From UHGV virus genome UHGV-0139916: a DNA stretch of 23,030 nucleotides. One strand, written 5' to 3'. The translations under genes and the position numbers were made by a program. The notes beneath the pieces were generated by a model. The model made no database searches. It was not told the DNA's origin and saw nothing but the letters and a program-made list of their open reading frames with translations. This document shows positions 632 through 22,793 of the stretch, in pieces (the stretch's first letter is position 1; every line of letters begins with the position of its first letter). Source of the stretch: a virus.

Positions 632-2800
<2,169 letters not shown>

Positions 2801-13805: not shown

Positions 13806-15218
13806 ATGGCTACGTGGCAACAGGGTATTAATTCTGGTGGTTTTCTGGCTGGCATTGGTGCGCAAAACGAGAATGCGCCAAAGGCAAGCGACATTAACGC
13901 AACGCTTGGTCTGATCCGCGAAAACAATGAACTGGCTCGATCAGGTGCAAATAACGTTGGTCTGACCGCGTTACGTGGTCTGGCTGGAGTTGCTGATATT
14001 TATAAGCAGGAACAGCAACAGAAAGCTATTAGTGCGTTCAATAAGGTTCACGCTGATGCATGGGCTTCTGGTGATCCATCGGGACTATTTAAGTTTGCCC
14101 AGGAAAATCCAGCGTTTGTTGCACAGGCACAACAGGCGTTTTCCGGTCTTAATGAGCAGCAACGCAACGATATGGGCGATTTAGCCATGAGGGCTAACGT
14201 CGCTCTTTCTCAGGGACCGGAAGCCTACAGTAAATTCATTACTGACAACAAGGACAGGTTAAATCGCGTGGGTGCTAATGCTGACTGGATGATTCAGACA
14301 GGTATCCAGAATCCCGAGCAGCTATCACACATGCTGACTACTATGTCTCTCGGTGCACTTGGGCCAGAAAAGGCGTTTGCTGTTCAGGACAAGATAGCTG
14401 GTCGTGAGATTGACCGAGGCAGGCTGGCAGAGACAATCCGCAGCAATCAGGCTGGCGAGGCGCTAACAGCACGAGGCCAGAACATCACGATGCGCGGTCA
14501 GGACTTATCTGCTTCTACTACGCGACGCGGTCAGGATTTAGCGATGCAGAGAGCATCAATGAAAGGGGCGGTTGGGAATAATGAGCGCACAGTTCAACTA
14601 GCAGACGGAAGAACTGTAACCGTAGGCGGGAAACTTCATGGTGCTGGTGCTAACGCGTTCTACGAAGGTATAGACAATGAGGGGAACATGGTTCGCGTTC
14701 CTGCTGGCTCTATTGCTGCTCCGGCCACGTCGGCAGCAAGCGCGCAGAATTACGCAATGAAGAAAGATCTTGATGCAATTTCTGGTGCATCAATTGACGA
14801 TCTTGGCTTCATGACTGGCATTACAGGCTTTTCAGGTTCTCCTGCTCTTGGTGCAGATATTCGTAGCCGTGCATCTGGTGGTGATCAGAGGAAACTATAC
14901 AACGCTGCACAGCGAATCCAAGGAAAGATGCAGAATCAGGGCATTGCAGCAGCCAGAGACATGGGGGCATCCGGTATCAACACCGTTGCAGAAGCAAAGA
15001 TGTATTTTCAAGGTATGCCACAGGTTGATTTCTCAAGCCCTGAAGCACTGCAACAATCAATGCGCGACATTCAGCAATATACCGACAATTACAACCAGCA
15101 ATATAACGTTAATGTCGGTAATGGAGGGAAGAAATCATCAATGCAACAGCCGCCTACTCAGCAATCAGCAGGAGGTAGCTACACGTCAAAATCAGGCATT
15201 CAATTTACGGTGGAATGA
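13806..15218 (+). CDS. ejection protein, P22 gp20-like (470 aa)
   Basis: Synteny and length (P22 gp20 about 471 aa). Confidence 0.78.
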
Positions 15219-17056
15219 TGAAAGTAACTGCAAACGGTAAGACATTTACCTTTCCTGATGGTACGAGCACCGAAGATATTGGCACCGCCATTGATGAGTA
15301 TTTTGCTGGTCAGGCTGTTCAGCAACAAATAGTTAATCAGGCCAATAATGCACCAACACGGGAAGAACCATCATTGATGCAACAAGCTGGCGATTGGCTC
15401 ACTGGTGGTCAAAGTGCAGGGCAAATTGCAGAACAGGCTGGTCGTGGTCTGGTAAACATACCATTTGACGTATTACAGGGCGGCGCAAGTCTGATTAATG
15501 CAATCAGTCAGGGGCTTGGTGGCCCCAAGGTTTTGGATGATGTCTATCGTCCAGTCGATCGACCGACAGACCCCTACGCTCAAGCTGGAGAAACAATTGG
15601 CGGGTATTTAGTTCCAGGAGTTGGAACGGCAGGAAGCATGGCTATTGGATCACTGGCAGAAGCCGCGAACCAGAAAGGCGATTTCGCGCAAAATGCAGCC
15701 ATAAACGCCGGAGTTAACCTTGCCGCTCAGGGTGTTCTTTCCGCAGCAGCAAAGGGAATAGGGCGTGGAATAACTGCTATAAAAGGCGATATCGCGCCAG
15801 AAGTAGCGAAAAAAATTGCCACCTCAGAATCGATGGGCGTGACACCAATGACATCTGATGTTATCCCGCCGAAAAATGCTTTCACTCGCGGACTTACTCA
15901 GGATGCTGAGGGGGCTTTGCTCGGGACAGGCTCAAAGCGAGCGGAGCAATATGCAACGCGTAGTAAGCTGGTAAGCAATTATTTTGACCGTTTTGGTGAG
16001 TACAACCCTGATGATGTGGTGAAATCTCTGACCACCACGTTAAGGGGACGGAAGGAGGCCGCTGGCGCTGTTATCAATGACGTCACCAATAAAATGGGTA
16101 ATGCCGCAGTTGATACCACAAATACCATGAATGCTCTGAATACAGCGATCGCAAGACAGGAACGGCTTGGGACGTCTGCCAATCAAAGCCTGCTTACATC
16201 CTTGCGTAACCTACGTGAAGAATTAGCAAACCCTGCAACTGATTTGGATGTTACGTTTGATCTCCTACGTCAGCACAGAACAGCATTTAGATCTAATGTT
16301 CAGGGGGATGCTATGGTCTTCCCCAACCAGGCAAAAGCAGCTACCAATATGGTAGAGAATGCAATGTCAAAAGACCTTCGTAACGCAGTTGCAAAAAACC
16401 TCGGTGCATCAGACGCAGCAAAATACCTTAAAGCAAATTCCGATTATGCAAACGTTTATAATAAGGTGCTTAATAAAAACATTGCTAACAAGCTCAACAA
16501 GGCAAGCAGTGAAGCCAGTCCTGAACTTATAAATACTGTTGTATTAAGCAGAAAACCATCTGACGTGAAACGAATCTGGAGCGCATTGGATGATAAAGGG
16601 AAAGATGCTATGCGTGCAGCTTACGTCAGCAAAATAGCGGAAAAGGCCGGTGACTCTCCAGCCAAGTTCATCACGGAAGTTAATAAGCTGAAATCTCAGT
16701 CAGGCGGTGAAATTTACAACACTATTTTTTCTGGAAAGCACATGAAAGAACTTGATGCTCTTCATGAAGTTCTACAGCAAACAGCAAGATCAGACACCGC
16801 AAATGTAGTAACTCAGACGGGGCAATCGCAAGCCAACAGGATAAGGACGATTGGCGCAACTACGACTCTTGGCGTATCAATGGGGCTTGAGGCTGGTTTC
16901 GGTGCAATGATGCGCTTGTATGAATCCAAAGCAGCAAGGAATGCGCTCTTACGTCTGGCAAACACTAAAGCTGGAACGCCAGCTTATGAAAGAGCGCTAA
17001 ATCAGGCGGCTACTGCCGTGCGCCCGCTCTTAGTTAACGAAGCTACCCGGCAGTAG
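15215..17056 (+). CDS. ejection protein, P22 gp16-like (613 aa)
   Basis: Synteny and length (P22 gp16 about 609 aa); ATGA start/stop overlap with the preceding gene. Confidence 0.78.
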
Positions 17057-17078: not shown

Positions 17079-17573
17079 TTATTTTATAGTTTTTATGAAT
17101 TCTTTATTAAATCCCTTCGCTTCTCCGGGGTATCTTCCGAAGACAATTTTTATAAAAACAGAAAAAATAAAGATAGCAAAGCTTAACAACAATTGCAGTA
17201 TCATTGGAACCCAAAGAACTACAGGCTCTATATTCATGAAACCAAATATTCTTCCGGCGATCATGGCGAAGTACCACACTGTTATCAGCAAACTTAGTGG
17301 CATATGAATTACTGATATTACCAATCCAAGAGCATCAGTAATTCTGTTTTCAAATTTTTCAGGGGAAAACTTTTCTTTAAGGTAATTCAGTGCGCAGGCC
17401 TCATTCTCTGGATTTTCAGCATTTTTCCCTATAGCAATAGAAATCTCAGATATCCTTGATTCAATTCTTTTACGTTTAATAAAACTAGAAAAAAAGAACC
17501 ACGCAATCTGCAACCCTATCCCCAGAAATAGAGTTGCGGCAACTAGCACAGCGTAACTCATAGAATCAGACAC
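17079..17573 (-). CDS. AT-rich integral membrane protein (about 160-164 aa, 3 predicted TM helices); candidate superinfection-exclusion protein at the P22 sieA position
   Basis: Minus-strand ORF. AAGGAGG lies 5 nt upstream of an in-frame GTG (plus 17571-17573); ATG at 17561 is the alternative start. Three hydrophobic segments ([21 protein letters not shown]; [26 protein letters not shown]; [28 protein letters not shown]). The SieA analogy is positional only. Confidence 0.6.
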
Positions 17574-17603
17574 ACCAACCTCCTTAGTTTTGCGCAGGAT
17601 ACC

Positions 17604-17969
17604 ATGAAAAAAGTTAACATTGGAAACGTACCAAAGATGCTCGTTCCGCTCTTTGAGAGCGGTACAATTGTGTTTTGTAGAGACTTTCCAGAATGGCAAC
17701 GCCTGCATCAAAAACTTGGCGTTGACGTGCATGACTCGGACGCCAACGGAGCGTCTCATACAATGAGTAGCGAGAATGGTGTTTTGCATGTGATAGGCGT
17801 GTTCAATGGCAAACTATCTACTATTGCCCATGAGTGCGCTCACATGGCATTCGATATCTGCTCAAGGGTAGGTGTTGATGTTGAACCAGGAAGAGCCAAC
17901 GAGACTTACTGCTACTTAATGAGCAGGCTTGTTGAGTTCTGCGAGCGACATATCAAAAAGCCGGAGTGA
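17604..17969 (+). CDS. hypothetical protein (121 aa) with an HExxH motif ([11 protein letters not shown]); possible small zincin-like metalloprotein
   Basis: ORF divergent from the membrane protein, weak AGGA RBS. The single HECAH motif is followed by acidic residues. No family confidently recognised. Confidence 0.5.
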
Positions 17970-17974
17970 CCGGC
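17955..17974 (-). terminator. stem-loop between convergent genes; terminator for the minus-strand mnt/YjzC-like transcript
   Basis: GCCGG-AGTGA-CCGGC (17960-17974) with AAAAA on the plus strand just 5' (TTTTT on the minus strand after the stem). The stop codon of the plus-strand gene lies in the loop. Confidence 0.5.
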
Positions 17975-17981
17975 TTGATTA

Positions 17982-18161
17982 TTACTTTTTGCTGTCTGGA
18001 GTTCGCTTATCCAATACCCAGACATGACCTGGCTTTGTTGTTGGTGGAAGCCTTTCGTTGTCCTTGACGGTGGCAAAATTGTCTTTCTTACCGCCGCGTG
18101 GGCCAACTTCTTGGTATATTCCGCCGTTTTTTCCTGTGTTTTCACCTGGTTTTTTCGCCAT
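17982..18161 (-). CDS. small Gly/Lys-rich protein (59 aa), YjzC-like
   Basis: ATG at 18161 with GAGGT 5 nt upstream; MAKKPGENTGKNGGIYQEVGPRGGKKDNFATVKDNERLPPTTKPGHVWVLDKRTPDSKK. The family assignment is from memory of the YjzC pattern and is unverified. Confidence 0.5.
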   Translation of the reverse strand: MAKKPGENTGKNGGIYQEVGPRGGKKDNFATVKDNERLPPTTKPGHVWVLDKRTPDSKK

Positions 18162-18254
18162 GATATACCTCAACATACACCCGTTATTGGGCGATTAAAT
18201 ATTGATCTCATTTTATAAGTAGTCAATATGGCCCAAGTAAATGCAAAAATTAAC

Positions 18255-18275
18255 CCACCGTCAGGTGGTTTTTTT
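18255..18275 (+). terminator. plus-strand intrinsic terminator embedded in the 3' codons of mnt
   Basis: CCACC-GTCA-GGTGG followed by seven T on the plus strand. The same bases encode ...KKTT-stop of Mnt on the minus strand. Confidence 0.45.
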
Positions 18276-18512
18276 GTACAAATCCTTCAGCGTATCAAAC
18301 ACCATCTTCTTAACAAGTTCGGACTGCTCATCAGCGATGCGTTCTGCATCGTCTCGATAGCCTGAAATTTTGGATGGCCTTGATACAGCATCAGTCACTA
18401 TCTGAACTAATTCTGAATTAAGAGAGCAGCCATTGGATTTGGCTCGCTGTTTTAGTTTTTCCTTTAATTCGTAAGGTAGCCGCAGATTAAATTGCGGGTC
18501 ATCTCTTCCCAT
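18261..18512 (-). CDS. mnt: Mnt repressor (ribbon-helix-helix, Arc/MetJ fold), 83 aa
   Basis: MGRDDPQFNLRLPYELKEKLKQRAKSNGCSLNSELVQIVTDAVSRPSKISGYRDDAERIADEQSELVKKMVFDTLKDLYKKTT is near-identical in length and sequence to P22 Mnt as recalled (same C-terminal AERLADEQSELVKKMVFDTLKDLYKKTT). Confidence 0.9.
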   Translation of the reverse strand: MGRDDPQFNLRLPYELKEKLKQRAKSNGCSLNSELVQIVTDAVSRPSKISGYRDDAERIADEQSELVKKMVFDTLKDLYKKTT

Positions 18513-18577
18513 TCTTGATGCCTCGCTCTTGTGAGTGGATCGGCATCTTATTATCTGCTGGTTGCATCCTCAATAAT

Positions 18578-18588
18578 ACCACGGTGGT
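18578..18588. promoter_or_regulatory. Mnt-operator-like palindrome ACCAC-G-GTGGT in the mnt/tailspike intergenic region
   Basis: An 11-bp sequence with perfect 5-bp inverted arms, about 70 bp upstream of the mnt start. Its CCACGGTGG core matches what I recall of the P22 mnt operator. Confidence 0.4.
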
Positions 18589-18931
18589 CGTATTTTTTGA
18601 TTGATAATGAATCACTGCGGCGATTCCTTGTATTTGGAGCAAATTAAATGACAGATATTATAAATAGGAATTGTTATTTAATAATGTTTGAAAATAAAAA
18701 TCATGGACGATAGGAATAAAGGTAGTACTTGTTTTTATTTTTGTAAGTGACGCATTAAGCGCATAAATAATATGCCTGTTGATCAAGATTCTTGAGTATT
18801 GTAAAATAATCGTTTTGTTCATGTTGCATGGTTTTTAAATGAATAGAAGGTTATTTTTCAAAACAATTGCATCTTTGTCTGCAGTCATTCCGTTTTCTTC
18901 AATATCTAAATCTTCAAACAGGATGACTAAT

Positions 18932-21430
18932 ATGCCTAATATAACTCCAAATGTTGTGATAGGTATGCCGTCGCAACTCTTCACAATGGCTAGTTCTTTT
19001 AAAACCGTAGCAAATGGAAAAATTTATATCGGTAAGATTGACACAGATCCGCTAAATCCAGAAAACCAGATTCCAGTATATCTGGAACGAGAAGATGGTA
19101 CTTATGTTCAGGTGCCACAGCCAATCGTTATCAATGCTGCTGGATACCCGGTATACAACGGACAGATTTCCAAGTTCGTAACTGTGCAAGGTCATTCTAT
19201 GGCTGTTTATGATGCGTATGGAGCGCAGCAGTTCTATTTTCCTAACGTACTGAAGTATGACCCGGATCAGCTACGGCAGCAATTAGAAGACCCGGATGGT
19301 GCTAAAAAATATTCCGAATTGCAGATTGCACGATGGCGTGATGAAACAGATCCACGTGGCTGGGGAGCAAAAGGTGATGGCATTGCGGATGATACACAGG
19401 CATTTGAACAACTGGAAGATTATGTTACGTCTATGGTTGTTGATATGCGAGGTAAAACTTATTTTACCTCCAGAACGTTTTTCAGGAATACCTATATTAA
19501 CGGGAAATGGTTGGTTGGAGGGAAAGTCATTCCTGTTAATGGTGAACTAGTTACAAGCAAGCGACCTGCATGGGACATTAATGCCATTGGACATGAGTCT
19601 AATGCCGCTATACGGTTTATACCAATTGCTAATGGTCGCGGACAGATAAGAACATTGCAAACTTTTGCATATGATCCTGTAAGCAGAGCTTATTATTCCA
19701 ATCACAATACAGAAATAGATGGAAACCCTACTACTGTTTCTGTCTGGAATAAATATTCTGCTGATTCAAAAATTAAAAATACATCTTCTGATTTTATGCT
19801 TCCTGAGGACAGGCTGGGTCATCAGGGAATAGCGGTACAGAATATAGATAATACGATTAAGTTATGGACTACAGCACCAGATACACCGGCAGGCTCTACT
19901 GCCCATACTGACTTTGATTTTTCTGTAGGTGGTTCACATGGGGTTGTTAGATTTTCCTGGAGGAGCAACTCCGAGGGGGAAATAGATTCTCCTGAAATGT
20001 TTAGGGTTGTAGAAGGAAATCGTACAGCGGGTAGTTCAACTACTCCGACTATTACATTAGACGGAAAATGGATGATTATCCGTTTCACCGACAATGGCGA
20101 ATACAATAAGCAAACGTTTCGTGTATTTTCCACTGATATTTTTGATAAACCCGGTGATTATTCCGCCCTGTGTACTCATGAGTTTACTCTTCAACTTTCA
20201 CAAGTCGGTGGTGATGAAACAACATCACTTAATGGATTTTGTTCTGATGGAGCACATCTGTATATGTATTGTGGAAATACTAAGTTTGGGCAGACTCAAT
20301 ATTTATCAAGTTGTGATCTGTTGGGGAATGATGTGCAGAAAGCCATTTCTAATTTGGGTGATACGGATTTACCTAGAATTATTGGCTCTACCCCTACCTT
20401 CCGCGAGTCAGAAGGGATGCATTTTGTTGATTACGATGGCGTTCTTTATCCATCGGTAACAATAGTATCTGAACATTCTGATGTTATGGGGGCAACCAGA
20501 CGTACCATTCTGATTTATGCGCTTGGTGCAGGAGATAAAAGAACGCTATCTCTACCATCTAAAGAAATATGTATCTCTGATAATCCAGAGGCGGTTCCTC
20601 ATGTAATTTATTCAGATAATACAACCTGGGAACAAAACTCACCTATAAAAGCACTAAAGTTCAACAACGAGCAAGGAACCGGTTTGCTTTATGAATGGCA
20701 GAGAAAAGGCGTTGGTTATTTTCAGATGTATATGAGTACCTCTAATGTAGCATTAATGGCTGCGAATGGGGCTGATTTACATCTAGGAAGTAATAATGTC
20801 TGGAGATGGAAAGTAAGTCCAAATGGTCACTGGCATCCTTATCTGGATAATTCTTACAGTGTTGGTGTACCAGATAACAGGCCAACTCAGATTTATGCTG
20901 TTTCAGGCTCAATAAACACCTCAGATGGTAGGGAAAAAAGCGACCCGCTAACAACGAGTGAACTCAGTCTGAATATGTCCCCTGGTTATGAAGGTGATGC
21001 AATTTTGGATGCATGGGGAGATATCAGGATCGTAGCTTTTCGCTGGCTTGAGGCTATCAGGGAAAAGGGAGATGGTGCCCGCTGGCATTTTGGTGTCATA
21101 GCACAACAGGTGCGAGATGCTTTCCTCGCTCATGGGATTGATGGGACCCGGTTTGGCCTTCTCTGTTACGATGAATGGGATGATAAATACGAGCCAGTGA
21201 TGGCGGTCAGGACGATTACTGAAGTTGTGGATGGTGTCGAAATTGAGAAGGAAGAAGAATACGAAACAGAAGAGCGAACTCTGGTACGCAAGGCCGGAAA
21301 TAGGTGGGGTATCCGTGCTGACCAGTGCTTATGGCTTGAGTCTGCTTATTTGCGTAGAAGAATCGAAAAAATAGAGTCACGTCTTGCAGCGATTGAAAAA
21401 AAACTTTTTGACAATGAATGCAAATTATAA
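18932..21430 (+). CDS. tailspike (832 aa): P22 gp9-type head-binding N-terminus, AT-rich beta-helix-type receptor-binding/glycanase domain, C-terminal intramolecular chaperone (S74-type) domain
   Basis: From ATG 18932, [50 protein letters not shown]...[13 protein letters not shown]...NVLKYDPDQ aligns with the P22 gp9 head-binding domain as recalled. [15 protein letters not shown] motif typical of pectate-lyase-like beta-helix proteins follows. SDGREK at 20921-20938 matches the endosialidase-type autocleavage motif. Confidence 0.9.
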
Positions 21431-21659: not shown

Positions 21660-22793
21660 TTATTTGTTAAGAGCTAAGACATCTTTTCTGAAATTTTCAT
21701 GATCTCCATCCAGAAGAAATTGTGCAAGGGATTTGAATTTGTTATAAATCAAGTCAAAATTAATAAGGTCTGAATGTGCAGCTAATGACTTATACATCAT
21801 TTTGAAAAAAAATCTTTTATCATTGTCTGGCACTTTTTTGTTTTTTTCAATGGCAGCTAGATGTTCAATGCAAATAACAACCCAAGCACTAAACATCTTT
21901 ACTTTTTCATTGGTTTGTTTTTTGGATATTAAAATGTAATTTAATCCGCATTGTAAAACAAAAATTCTATTTTCTACTGGGAAACTAACTTTAGAAAGAT
22001 GTTGTTGATCGTGCCCGTTAAGAATATAATACTCCTTATCTGATAAAACTGAAACTGTATTAGATACGGTTAATGCATGACATGAAAAAATCATGTCTTC
22101 GTAAACAGGTATTGATGGGTTGAATAAAACCCCATTATTAATAAGCAATTCTCGCTTAAATAACTTGAAAATTTTCAGTGATCTGAATAAATGATTTTTG
22201 ATAATATCTGCTTTGTTAGCATTTTTTCTGAATGCCCGCACGGGTACTCCTCGCCCTGTAGATGATGCTTGCTTAAAATATACAATATCGCTATTATTTT
22301 TATCTGCAATATGCAGCCCATCATAAAGTAACTCTGAATGAATTGCATCATCTGAATCTAGAAAGAAAACATAACGTCCTTTGGCTGCTTTTATTCCTTC
22401 ATTGCGTGGAGCTGAAGCATTTCCGGAGGGGATTTCCCTGCGAATTACACGCCGGTTTATATCCGGTGCAATAAAATACTCAATTGCTGCAACACTTTTA
22501 TCTGTTGAACCATCATCAATAAAAATCACTTCAAATCTGTTTTTATCTAGCGTTTGTGAATTAATAGACTTAATACATTCAATAATTAAGTTTTCTCTGT
22601 TATGAACAGGTATTATAATTGAAATGTCAAACTTATTATTTGAATCAATAGTATGTATAACATTTTTTATTTTATATAAGGCTGAATGGATGGCTATATC
22701 TAAAATAGCTTCAGATATAATGTTTTCTTTTTTAATGTTGCCTTTTATGTTAAAATATAAACAATTAGTACGAAGAACAAAATCCACGCTCAT
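21660..22793 (-). CDS. family-2 (GT-A) glycosyltransferase (377 aa from ATG 22793), AT-rich
   Basis: Motifs SIIIPVHNRENLIIECIKSINSQT, FIDDGSTDKS and FFLDSDD (DXD-type). No C-terminal TM segments, so not GtrB-like. The ATG abuts a tetranucleotide repeat and there is no Shine-Dalgarno sequence. Confidence 0.85.
   Translation of the reverse strand: MSVDFVLRTNCLYFNIKGNIKKENIISEAILDIAIHSALYKIKNVIHTIDSNNKFDISIIIPVHNRENLIIECIKSINSQTLDKNRFEVIFIDDGSTDKSVAAIEYFIAPDINRRVIRREIPSGNASAPRNEGIKAAKGRYVFFLDSDDAIHSELLYDGLHIADKNNSDIVYFKQASSTGRGVPVRAFRKNANKADIIKNHLFRSLKIFKLFKRELLINNGVLFNPSIPVYEDMIFSCHALTVSNTVSVLSDKEYYILNGHDQQHLSKVSFPVENRIFVLQCGLNYILISKKQTNEKVKMFSAWVVICIEHLAAIEKNKKVPDNDKRFFFKMMYKSLAAHSDLINFDLIYNKFKSLAQFLLDGDHENFRKDVLALNK

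What the first reader, a model, noticed from the sequence alone, without database searches (positions are those of the whole stretch)
17604..17969. Small HExxH protein of unknown family
The 121-aa ORF has a single HECAH motif in the context [11 protein letters not shown], followed by acidic residues that could supply a third zinc ligand. This is too small for a classical peptidase but resembles minimal zincin-like domains. It is divergently paired with the membrane protein across a gap of only about 30 bp, so the two promoters must overlap coding sequence or one start is misassigned.
Basis: inference. Interest (0 to 1): 0.45.

Follow-up and report, generated by a model that had tools for sequence, protein, structure and literature searches.

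The report
Small phage zinc-protease-like gene hkcC
The 121-codon ORF is the real, strongly conserved phage gene hkcC of P22/HK620-type phages, long listed as "function unknown"; it belongs to a large, uncurated phage family whose only invariant residues are a zinc-protease signature, but what it cuts is still not known.

Summary
The ORF at 17604-17969 (+) exists as described. It is gene hkcC of phage HK620 (99% identical) and is present but unannotated in the P22 reference record. The window is a P22-like E. coli prophage. One HExxH in 23 kb is no more than chance gives, so the evidence lies in conservation. Across 37 alleles, 26 of 28 variable sites fall at third codon positions. A profile search finds 514 clusters of stand-alone ~120-aa relatives. 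In 120 diverse members only H76, E77, H80 and E100 are invariant, which is HExxH plus a Glu 20 residues downstream, the thermolysin spacing. AlphaFold (pLDDT 89-93) gives a zincin-type topology. No Pfam, NCBIfam or PADLOC model matches, and no solved structure matches significantly. I read it as a minimal cytoplasmic gluzincin metallopeptidase. It has no conserved promoter of its own, so it is probably read as part of the late operon. It is not SieA's partner: the sieA slot is a swappable cargo position, and published work shows sieA acts alone. It often travels with the convergent small gene orf59a, but each also occurs without the other. The substrate is unknown; a host or rival-phage protein is my inference. 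This is a new member of a known kind, of moderate interest.

The parts
17604..17969 (+). hkcC coding sequence (121 aa, 13.6 kDa, pI 6.4, no hydrophobic segment)
   Evidence: ORF. It is 99.2% identical to HK620 HkcC and to the unannotated P22 ORF. Of 28 variable sites among 37 alleles, 26 are at third codon positions, and 25 variable codons are synonymous against 3 with amino-acid changes. PHROG 1365. Physical properties.
17596..17599 (+). Shine-Dalgarno-like AGGA, 4 nt before the ATG of hkcC
   Evidence: Read from the sequence. Purine-rich SDs sit at the same place in five other loci, while nothing further upstream is conserved.
17829..17843 (+). codons for H76-E77-C78-A79-H80 (HExxH: two proposed zinc ligands and the catalytic base)
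   Evidence: H76, E77 and H80 are invariant in 120 diverse family members. They lie on predicted helix 71-88.
17898..17915 (+). codons for N99-E100-T-Y-C103-Y104 (NExxCY motif; E100 is the proposed third zinc ligand)
   Evidence: E100 is 100% conserved, N99 77%, C103 81% and Y104 93%. E100 sits at the start of predicted helix 100-116, 20 residues after H80.
17958..17976 (.). G+C-rich hairpin spanning the hkcC stop codon: a bidirectional terminator shared with orf59a
   Evidence: Terminator scan on both strands. The homologous positions are annotated as the mnt/orf59a terminator in P22 and as bidirectional tORF59A in HK620.
17604..17634 (-). position homologous to the annotated P22 sieA promoter, lying inside the first 31 nt of hkcC
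   Evidence: NC_002371.2 annotates this promoter at 13861-13891 on the minus strand, which equals hkcC nt 1-31. It was not recovered by the simple consensus scan. It is functional within 85 bp upstream of sieA (PMC10883804).
17079..17573 (-). sieA (superinfection exclusion, 164 aa from GTG 17573): a neighbour, not a functional partner
   Evidence: PHROG 7745, E = 1e-105. P22 annotation. The start codon is supported by the cargo-swap junction and by an ATG variant at the same codon.
17982..18161 (-). orf59a (59 aa, pI 9.9, YjzC-like): convergent gene that frequently travels with hkcC
   Evidence: PHROG 3202. Pfam YjzC below threshold. Homologues 75-81% identical lie convergent to hkcC in five non-P22 loci and in Morganella-type prophages.
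18198..18226 (-). conserved sigma-70-type promoter of orf59a (TTGACT-17-AATATT)
   Evidence: Promoter scan. TTGA and AATATTT are invariant across six loci whose further upstream DNA is unrelated.

Best explanation
hkcC encodes a stand-alone, soluble, cytoplasmic, minimal zinc metallopeptidase of the gluzincin type. H76 and H80 on one helix and E100 on the next would hold the zinc, and E77 would activate the water. In this P22-like prophage the gene has no conserved promoter of its own. It lies in the sense direction inside the late operon, between ejection-protein gene 16 and the tailspike gene, so it is most likely made by read-through during lytic growth. It is a dispensable accessory gene. 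I infer that it cuts one or a few specific proteins of the host or of a competing phage (host takeover or counter-defence) rather than maturing the virion. Shown here: the gene is real and under purifying selection, the catalytic signature is invariant, and the predicted fold is zincin-like. Inferred: metal binding, peptidase activity, late timing and the class of target.
For: Coding: 26 of 28 variable sites are at third codon positions, and 25 variable codons are synonymous against 3 with amino-acid changes. Family: 514 clusters at 50% identity with E <= 1e-3, almost all 100-140 aa single-domain proteins. Signature: only H76, E77, H80 and E100 are invariant in 120 sequences with 22% mean column identity, and no conserved third His exists. 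The H80-to-E100 spacing of 20 equals the thermolysin H146-E166 spacing (spacing from my own knowledge), and the profile aligns residues 69-115 to thermolysin 134-180, weakly at E = 0.64. Fold: AlphaFold pLDDT 89.3 and 93.4 with identical topology b-b-a-b-b-a(HExxH)-a(E). This matches the published definition of the zincin MPTase core (PMC5512222). Structure search among viral models finds many phage proteins, a few named SprT-like or metalloprotease, with E down to 9e-10 and TM 0.7-0.8. The Pfam SprT-like model is touched below threshold by 31 of 120 relatives. Location: no signal peptide or transmembrane segment. Timing: it is co-oriented with late genes in P22-like, lambdoid and siphovirus prophages, and nothing upstream of its SD is conserved. 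Accessory status: it occurs in 131 of 5426 complete E. coli genomes and occupies different slots in different phages. In N4-like and phiKMV-like lytic phages, relatives sit among early or middle genes. That argues against a virion-maturation role and for a host-directed one.
Confidence: 0.6

Rival explanations
1. HkcC and Orf59a form a two-gene mobile module. The small basic protein Orf59a is made from its own constitutive promoter in the lysogen. The late-made protease HkcC acts on it, or on its target, for example to switch a prophage function off after induction.
For: Convergent hkcC-orf59a pairs sharing one hairpin occur in P22-like podoviruses (about 70 of 80 loci). They also occur in siphovirus-type prophages of Klebsiella, Rosenbergiella, Xenorhabdus and Proteus, one metagenome and Morganella. 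The flanks there are unrelated, and the module boundaries fall exactly at the hkcC SD and the orf59a -35 box. In the phage database the 52 enterobacterial phage copies of orf59a lie next to hkcC wherever coordinates could be compared.
Against: Each gene occurs without the other. Ten or so P22-like loci and all distant HkcC relatives lack orf59a. Orf59a homologues of 68-73% identity occur with no hkcC (S. bongori-type prophages and other elements) or with only a decayed hkcC remnant. Linkage could simply reflect a shared terminator and co-inheritance. A complex prediction could not be run.
Confidence: 0.12
2. HkcC is an ImmA/IrrE-type anti-repressor protease that cleaves a phage repressor (Mnt, Arc or C2) to control the immI region.
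For: It is a small HExxH protein lying about 300 bp from the mnt repressor gene in the immunity I region. There are weak structural hits to phage 'IrrE protein' models, E = 0.03-0.04.
Against: There is no Pfam Peptidase_M78 hit. hkcC is retained at 99% identity in loci that lack mnt, arc and ant, and in HK620, where only remnants remain. Relatives sit near terminase, portal or tape-measure genes with no repressor nearby. It faces away from the regulatory genes and has no promoter of its own.
Confidence: 0.05
3. HkcC is a SprT/Spartan/Wss1-like protease, or another zincin-fold hydrolase, that works on DNA-bound proteins or on a non-protein substrate such as a nucleotide signal.
For: SprT-like is the only recurring Pfam hit among relatives (31 of 120, best E = 1e-4). 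The best plausible PDB hit is SPRTN. Some relatives carry long Lys-rich C-terminal tails that could bind nucleic acid.
Against: The query itself does not hit SprT-like. The third ligand is Glu, not the His of SprT, Wss1 and Spartan (ligand set from my own knowledge). HkcC is slightly acidic and has no DNA-binding extension or zinc ribbon. hhalign against E. coli SprT/YggI gave nothing (a weak test).
Confidence: 0.08
4. HkcC is a virion maturation or processing protease, or a packaged protein, acting on the neighbouring ejection, head or tail proteins.
For: It lies directly after the ejection-protein genes here. In other phages it lies next to terminase, portal, tail-chaperone and tape-measure genes, on the same strand.
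Against: Its distribution among otherwise near-identical P22-like phages is sporadic (131 of 5426 E. coli genomes), and the slots vary. Relatives lie in early or middle regions of N4-like and phiKMV-like phages. From my own recollection, not checked here: P22 assembles without a phage protease, the one known processing event (gp7) is attributed to host oligopeptidase A, and the immI region is deletable.
Confidence: 0.07
5. The ORF is conserved only as DNA (sieA promoter, terminator, recombination linker), and its product has no enzymatic role.
For: A promoter and a terminator overlap its two ends. It is a constant segment flanked by swappable genes. The P22 reference record does not annotate it.
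Against: The third-position bias of substitutions runs across the whole ORF. Homologues down to about 25% identity in unrelated phages keep length, fold and the four catalytic residues.
Confidence: 0.03

Closest known systems
Minigluzincins (proabylysin / projannalysin; about 100-110-residue minimal gluzincin catalytic domains)
   Same: A stand-alone domain of about 105-120 residues. HExxH sits on one helix and the third ligand, Glu, on the following helix, with a small beta-sheet plus backing helix in front. This shows that 121 aa is enough for an active zincin (the properties of the family are from my own knowledge; the term appears in PMC4559962).
SprT-like / Wss1 / Spartan zincins (Pfam PF10263)
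   Same: Small HExxH domains. It is the only Pfam model that relatives of HkcC touch repeatedly. SPRTN is the best plausible PDB hit, and some structural neighbours among phage proteins carry this name.
   Different: The query does not match the model. The third ligand is Glu instead of His. There is no zinc ribbon or DNA-binding part.
Zincin-like MPTase domains of phage and plasmid polyvalent proteins (Iyer et al. 2017, PMC5512222)
   Same: The same core definition applies (three-stranded sheet, N-terminal helix, HExxH helix, Glu helix). They too are phage-borne and are proposed to process or attack proteins during conflict with the host.
   Different: Those are domains inside giant multidomain, often packaged, proteins. 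HkcC is a free 121-aa protein and does not hit the corresponding Pfam models.
ImmA/IrrE (peptidase M78) anti-repressor proteases
   Same: Small HExxH proteases of mobile elements that lie near repressor genes.
   Different: No model match. Linkage to a repressor gene is not conserved.
Thermolysin-type gluzincins (M4)
   Same: Identical HExxH-to-Glu spacing and an N-E-x-x motif at the third ligand. A weak profile alignment covers both motifs.
   Different: Thermolysin is a 316-aa secreted two-domain enzyme. The similarity is limited to the active-site helices and is not significant (E = 0.64).

Membership tests
Zincin (clan MA) metallopeptidase superfamily, gluzincin type | HExxH motif on an alpha-helix | tested here: met
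   H76, E77 and H80 are 100% conserved in 120 sequences. They lie on predicted helix 71-88.
Zincin (clan MA) metallopeptidase superfamily, gluzincin type | Third zinc ligand Glu on the next helix, about 20 or more residues downstream | tested here: met
   E100 is 100% conserved, 20 residues after H80, at the start of helix 100-116.
Zincin (clan MA) metallopeptidase superfamily, gluzincin type | Core fold: small beta-sheet with a backing helix before the two active-site helices | tested here: met
   Two AlphaFold models (pLDDT 89 and 93) give E11-13, E21-25, H28-37, E49-56, E59-66, H71-88 and H100-116. This fits the definition quoted from PMC5512222. It is a prediction, not an experimental structure.
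Zincin (clan MA) metallopeptidase superfamily, gluzincin type | Significant similarity to a solved or curated zincin | tested here: inconclusive
Zincin (clan MA) metallopeptidase superfamily, gluzincin type | Binds zinc and hydrolyses peptide bonds | not testable with these tools
   Needs purified protein.
SprT-like (PF10263) | Match to the family model above its curated cut-off | tested here: not met
   The query has no hit even at E <= 10. Thirty-one of 120 relatives hit weakly, best E = 1e-4, and ten further relatives gave none.
SprT-like (PF10263) | Third ligand His shortly after HExxH (feature from my own knowledge of SprT, Wss1 and Spartan) | tested here: not met
   No column after H80 has more than 18% His.
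ImmA/IrrE (M78) | Model match and conserved adjacency to the repressor it cleaves | tested here: not met
   No Pfam match. hkcC persists without mnt, arc or ant, and relatives lie far from any repressor.
Minigluzincins | Catalytic domain of about 100-110 residues with HExxH plus Glu | tested here: met
   121 aa as a single domain, with the motifs as above.
Minigluzincins | Structural superposition on proabylysin or projannalysin | tested here: inconclusive
Known anti-phage defence proteins (PADLOC) | Match to any defence-system model | tested here: not met
   No hit for HkcC, SieA or Orf59a.

The most novel reading that the evidence does not exclude
hkcC and orf59a together are a compact mobile conflict module that hops between late operons of unrelated temperate phages. 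A constitutively expressed small basic protein would act in the lysogen. A protease made only in late lytic growth would remove it, or the host factor it engages. That would be a timing switch giving the prophage 'self-immunity' to its own lysogenic-conversion function.
Probability: 0.1. Interest if true: 0.65.

Novelty: new member of a known kind. Interest (0 to 1): 0.35.

Why it matters
P22 and HK620 are model phages, yet this gene is still labelled 'unknown' and is missing from the P22 reference annotation. Assigning it to a large phage-only family of minimal zinc proteases (over 500 sequence clusters, found in podo-, sipho-, N4-like, T7-like and jumbo phages) gives a concrete and easily testable hypothesis. 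Few phage-encoded proteases that target host proteins are known to me. A 121-residue enzyme in a genetically tractable phage would be a convenient entry point. It also corrects the impression that the gene is tied to SieA exclusion.

Tried and rejected
- **Curated family models:** Pfam, NCBIfam and PADLOC scans of the protein returned nothing except a spurious lantibiotic hit from the 'HEC' string.
- **Comparison with E. coli SprT:** hhalign of the family alignment against the single E. coli SprT (YggI) sequence was uninformative, with template Neff 1.
- **SprT-like hits among relatives:** I guessed that relatives with HE[LIV]GH motifs would be the ones hitting SprT-like. None did.
- **Loci scans:** the scan with the deep alignment failed for lack of a conserved stretch. 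The viral scan with the shallow alignment returned only loci >=99% identical, which was useful for the neighbourhood but not for diversity. The genome scan returned only 3 loci.
- **'Always a late gene':** rejected for the wider family after looking at N4-like and phiKMV-like phages.
- **'Obligate partner of Orf59a':** rejected after finding orf59a without hkcC.
- **Second paralogue in the window:** none found.
- **Literature:** searches for hkcC, its accession numbers, phage HExxH anti-defence proteins and YjzC found no functional data.

Full report
**What the window is.** The 23-kb window is the late region of a P22-like (Lederbergvirus-type) prophage of Escherichia coli. The plus strand carries Rz, small and large terminase, portal and the other virion genes up to ejection-protein gene 16 (15215-17056). 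A tailspike gene follows at 18839-21430. Between gene 16 and the tailspike lies what the P22 literature calls the 'ant moron' or immunity I region (PMC2629481). Here it holds four genes. They are sieA (17079-17573, minus), the finding's ORF (17604-17969, plus), orf59a (17982-18161, minus) and mnt (18261-18512, minus). arc and ant are absent.

**The observation.** The ORF, its ATG and TGA, its 121 codons and the single HECAH in [11 protein letters not shown] are all as described. One HExxH is what chance gives in this much sequence: one is observed in six frames, and shuffles give 1.3 +/- 1.2. The motif alone therefore proves nothing.

**The ORF is a known gene.** It is hkcC of phage HK620, annotated 'unknown', at 99.2% amino-acid identity. 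The same ORF is present in P22. The P22 reference record NC_002371.2 and AB426868 do not annotate it. The literature lists it only as a gene of unknown function (PMC2629481, PMC4837284). PGAP calls it 'hypothetical protein' in the 131 of 5426 complete E. coli genomes that carry it. It falls in PHROG 1365, function unknown.

**It is a real protein-coding gene.** The window and P22 differ at six sites, all at third codon positions. Among 83 copies (37 distinct DNA alleles), 26 of 28 variable sites are third positions. There are 25 synonymous variable codons against 3 with amino-acid changes. A profile search of 1.84 billion cluster representatives finds 514 relatives with E <= 1e-3. Almost all are 100-140 aa stand-alone proteins. 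The family profile and the N-terminal conservation (…LPKM.VPLF…) begin at the first ATG, which supports 17604 as the start.

**The catalytic signature.** In a 120-sequence alignment with 22% mean column identity, exactly four columns are invariant: H76, E77, H80 and E100.
- Next in conservation are G49, Y104, G90 and C103. No position after H80 holds more than 18% His.
- HExxH plus a Glu 20 residues later, inside an N-E-x-x-C-Y motif, is the gluzincin arrangement. The spacing equals that of thermolysin (my own knowledge). The profile weakly aligns both motifs to thermolysin residues 134-180, E = 0.64.
- Two AlphaFold runs, one with 19 and one with 120 aligned sequences, gave pLDDT 89.3 and 93.4. 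Both have the same topology: strands 11-13, 21-25, 49-56 and 59-66, a backing helix 28-37, the HExxH helix 71-88 and the Glu helix 100-116.
- This is the zincin core as defined by Iyer et al. (PMC5512222).
- The protein is slightly acidic (pI 6.4) and has no signal peptide or membrane segment.

**Limits of the family assignment.**
- The query matches no Pfam, NCBIfam or PADLOC model.
- Profile-to-PDB sequence hits are all zincins but marginal: myroilysin 0.02, BMP1 0.25, thermolysin 0.64.
- Thirty-one of 120 relatives touch Pfam SprT-like below threshold.
- Among predicted viral structures there are many confident neighbours (E down to 9e-10, TM 0.7-0.8). Most are uncharacterized and a few are named SprT-like or metalloprotease.
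- I therefore place HkcC in the zincin superfamily as an uncurated family of minimal gluzincins. It is not in SprT-like proper, because the third ligand differs, and not in ImmA/IrrE.

**Transcription and the '30-bp gap'.**
- *The gap.* With sieA starting at GTG 17573, the gap to hkcC is 30 bp. It contains only the two ribosome-binding sites, back to back. In the P22 record the sieA promoter is annotated on the first 31 nt of hkcC. The mnt/orf59a terminator lies over hkcC's last codons. HK620 calls the latter a bidirectional terminator. The hairpin is at 17958-17976 here.
- *No promoter for hkcC.* Nothing upstream of the hkcC SD is conserved between P22-like and siphovirus loci. The gene points the same way as the late operon. 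Textbook knowledge of P22 (gene 9 is transcribed from the late promoter through immI; from memory, not checked here) implies that hkcC is read as part of the late message.
The 236-aa 'SieA' used in some records is an over-extension.

**It is not SieA's partner.** In 80 viral contigs carrying hkcC at >=99% identity, the minus-strand slot next to it holds at least 12 unrelated small proteins. These include SieA, HkcB, lipoproteins and one- or two-helix membrane proteins. All are joined at the same start codon to the same leader. HK620 has hkcB there. Leavitt et al. showed that sieA with only 85 bp of upstream DNA gives full exclusion (PMC10883804).

**Linkage to orf59a.**
- *Together.* The convergent 59-codon gene orf59a (YjzC-like, pI 9.9) accompanies hkcC in about 70 of the 80 P22-like loci. 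The pair recurs in siphovirus-type prophages of Klebsiella, Rosenbergiella, Xenorhabdus and Proteus and in one metagenome. In at least four of these it sits between tail genes and the tape-measure gene. It also recurs in Morganella-type P22-like prophages.
- *Module boundaries.* orf59a has its own promoter, TTGACT-17-AATATT, conserved in all six loci compared. The DNA beyond it is unrelated. The mobile unit is therefore SD-hkcC, hairpin, orf59a and its promoter.
- *Apart.* Some P22-like loci and all distant HkcC relatives lack orf59a. Orf59a homologues occur with no hkcC, or with only a decayed remnant.
- I treat a functional partnership as a minority hypothesis.

**Where relatives sit.**
- In temperate phages the gene lies co-directionally in late operons. 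It is found between the lysis genes and terminase (ST64T, L, epsilon34, mEp phages). It is also found just upstream of the terminase genes or between terminase and portal, and before the tape measure.
- In lytic N4-like phages it lies at the start of the block of small early genes.
- In a phiKMV-like phage it lies between ligase and RNA polymerase.
- One relative is on a contig that encodes chimallin.
- Variable timing and sporadic presence argue against virion maturation. They favour an accessory, host-directed role.

**Mechanism I commit to.** HkcC is a cytoplasmic, minimal zinc endopeptidase made during lytic growth. It cleaves a specific host or rival-phage protein (confidence 0.6 for the enzyme class; the target class is inference only). 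The rivals, in order, are:
1. a module-specific role with Orf59a;
2. SprT/Spartan-like or non-peptide hydrolysis;
3. virion protein processing;
4. ImmA-like repressor cleavage;
5. conservation as DNA only, which effectively exclude.

**Verdict.** The gene itself is already known by name. This is a new member of a known kind and moderately interesting. The main reasons for interest are that it sits in model phages, represents a large uncharacterized phage family, and is easy to test.

Noticed in passing
window 17079-17603 (minus strand); loci L011-L090: The slot between gene 16 and hkcC is a hypervariable cargo position. At least 12 unrelated small proteins (SieA, HkcB, lipoproteins, small membrane or secreted proteins) are joined at exactly the same start codon to an identical leader, AAGGAGG SD and promoter that lie in or next to hkcC. 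It behaves as a fixed 'expression socket' with swappable coding cargo.
   Followed up: partly
window 17571-17573: The published SieA start is 'uncertain (162 or 164 aa)' (PMC10883804). The cargo-swap junction falls exactly at GTG 17573, five nt after AAGGAGG. In locus L053 the same codon is ATG. Both observations support the 164-aa start.
   Followed up: partly
window 17982-18226 (minus strand); L006, L093-L096, L102-L105, L112: orf59a (YjzC-like, 59 aa, very basic) has its own conserved sigma-70-type promoter and is more conserved across genera (75-81%) than hkcC (55-63%). It is widespread, with 108 clusters at 90% identity. In L112/L113 it sits next to a decayed hkcC remnant. Its function is unknown.
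   Followed up: partly
window 913-2714 (minus strand): An IS21-family insertion sequence lies between the Rz lysis gene (81-380) and the small terminase gene (3449). It consists of an istA-like transposase (1692-2714) and an istB split into two ORFs (1408-1695 and 913-1356). It interrupts the late operon upstream of all virion genes and of hkcC. The prophage may be crippled, or late transcription may be polar.
   Followed up: no
window 18261-21430: mnt is present, but arc and ant, which Mnt controls in P22, are missing, leaving an orphan repressor. The tailspike has a P22 head-binding domain joined to endosialidase-like pieces and a Peptidase_S74 intramolecular chaperone domain, unlike the P22 endorhamnosidase.
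   Followed up: no
P22 records NC_002371.2 13861-14226 and AB426868.1 13798-14163 (loci L004, L001): The P22 reference genome does not annotate hkcC, although the ORF is intact and under purifying selection. The first P22 sequence, AF217253, matches at only 72%, presumably from sequencing errors.
   Followed up: yes
window 17955-17976: The last codons of hkcC (K-K-P-E-stop) form one arm of the bidirectional terminator hairpin. A K-K-P-E/A ending is kept even in homologues of 43-65% identity, so the C-terminus may be constrained by RNA structure as well as by the protein.
   Followed up: no
family members P0065, P0072, P0136, P0156, P0097; mEp044_72 in L003 3501-4085: Some relatives carry 40-70-residue Lys/Glu-rich, probably disordered, C-terminal tails. 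One has a 160-residue N-terminal extension. This hints at tethering to nucleic acid or to another partner.
   Followed up: no
window 21660-22793 (minus strand): A family-2 glycosyltransferase gene lies just beyond the tailspike gene. It is probably a lysogenic-conversion (surface polysaccharide modification) gene at the prophage end.
   Followed up: no
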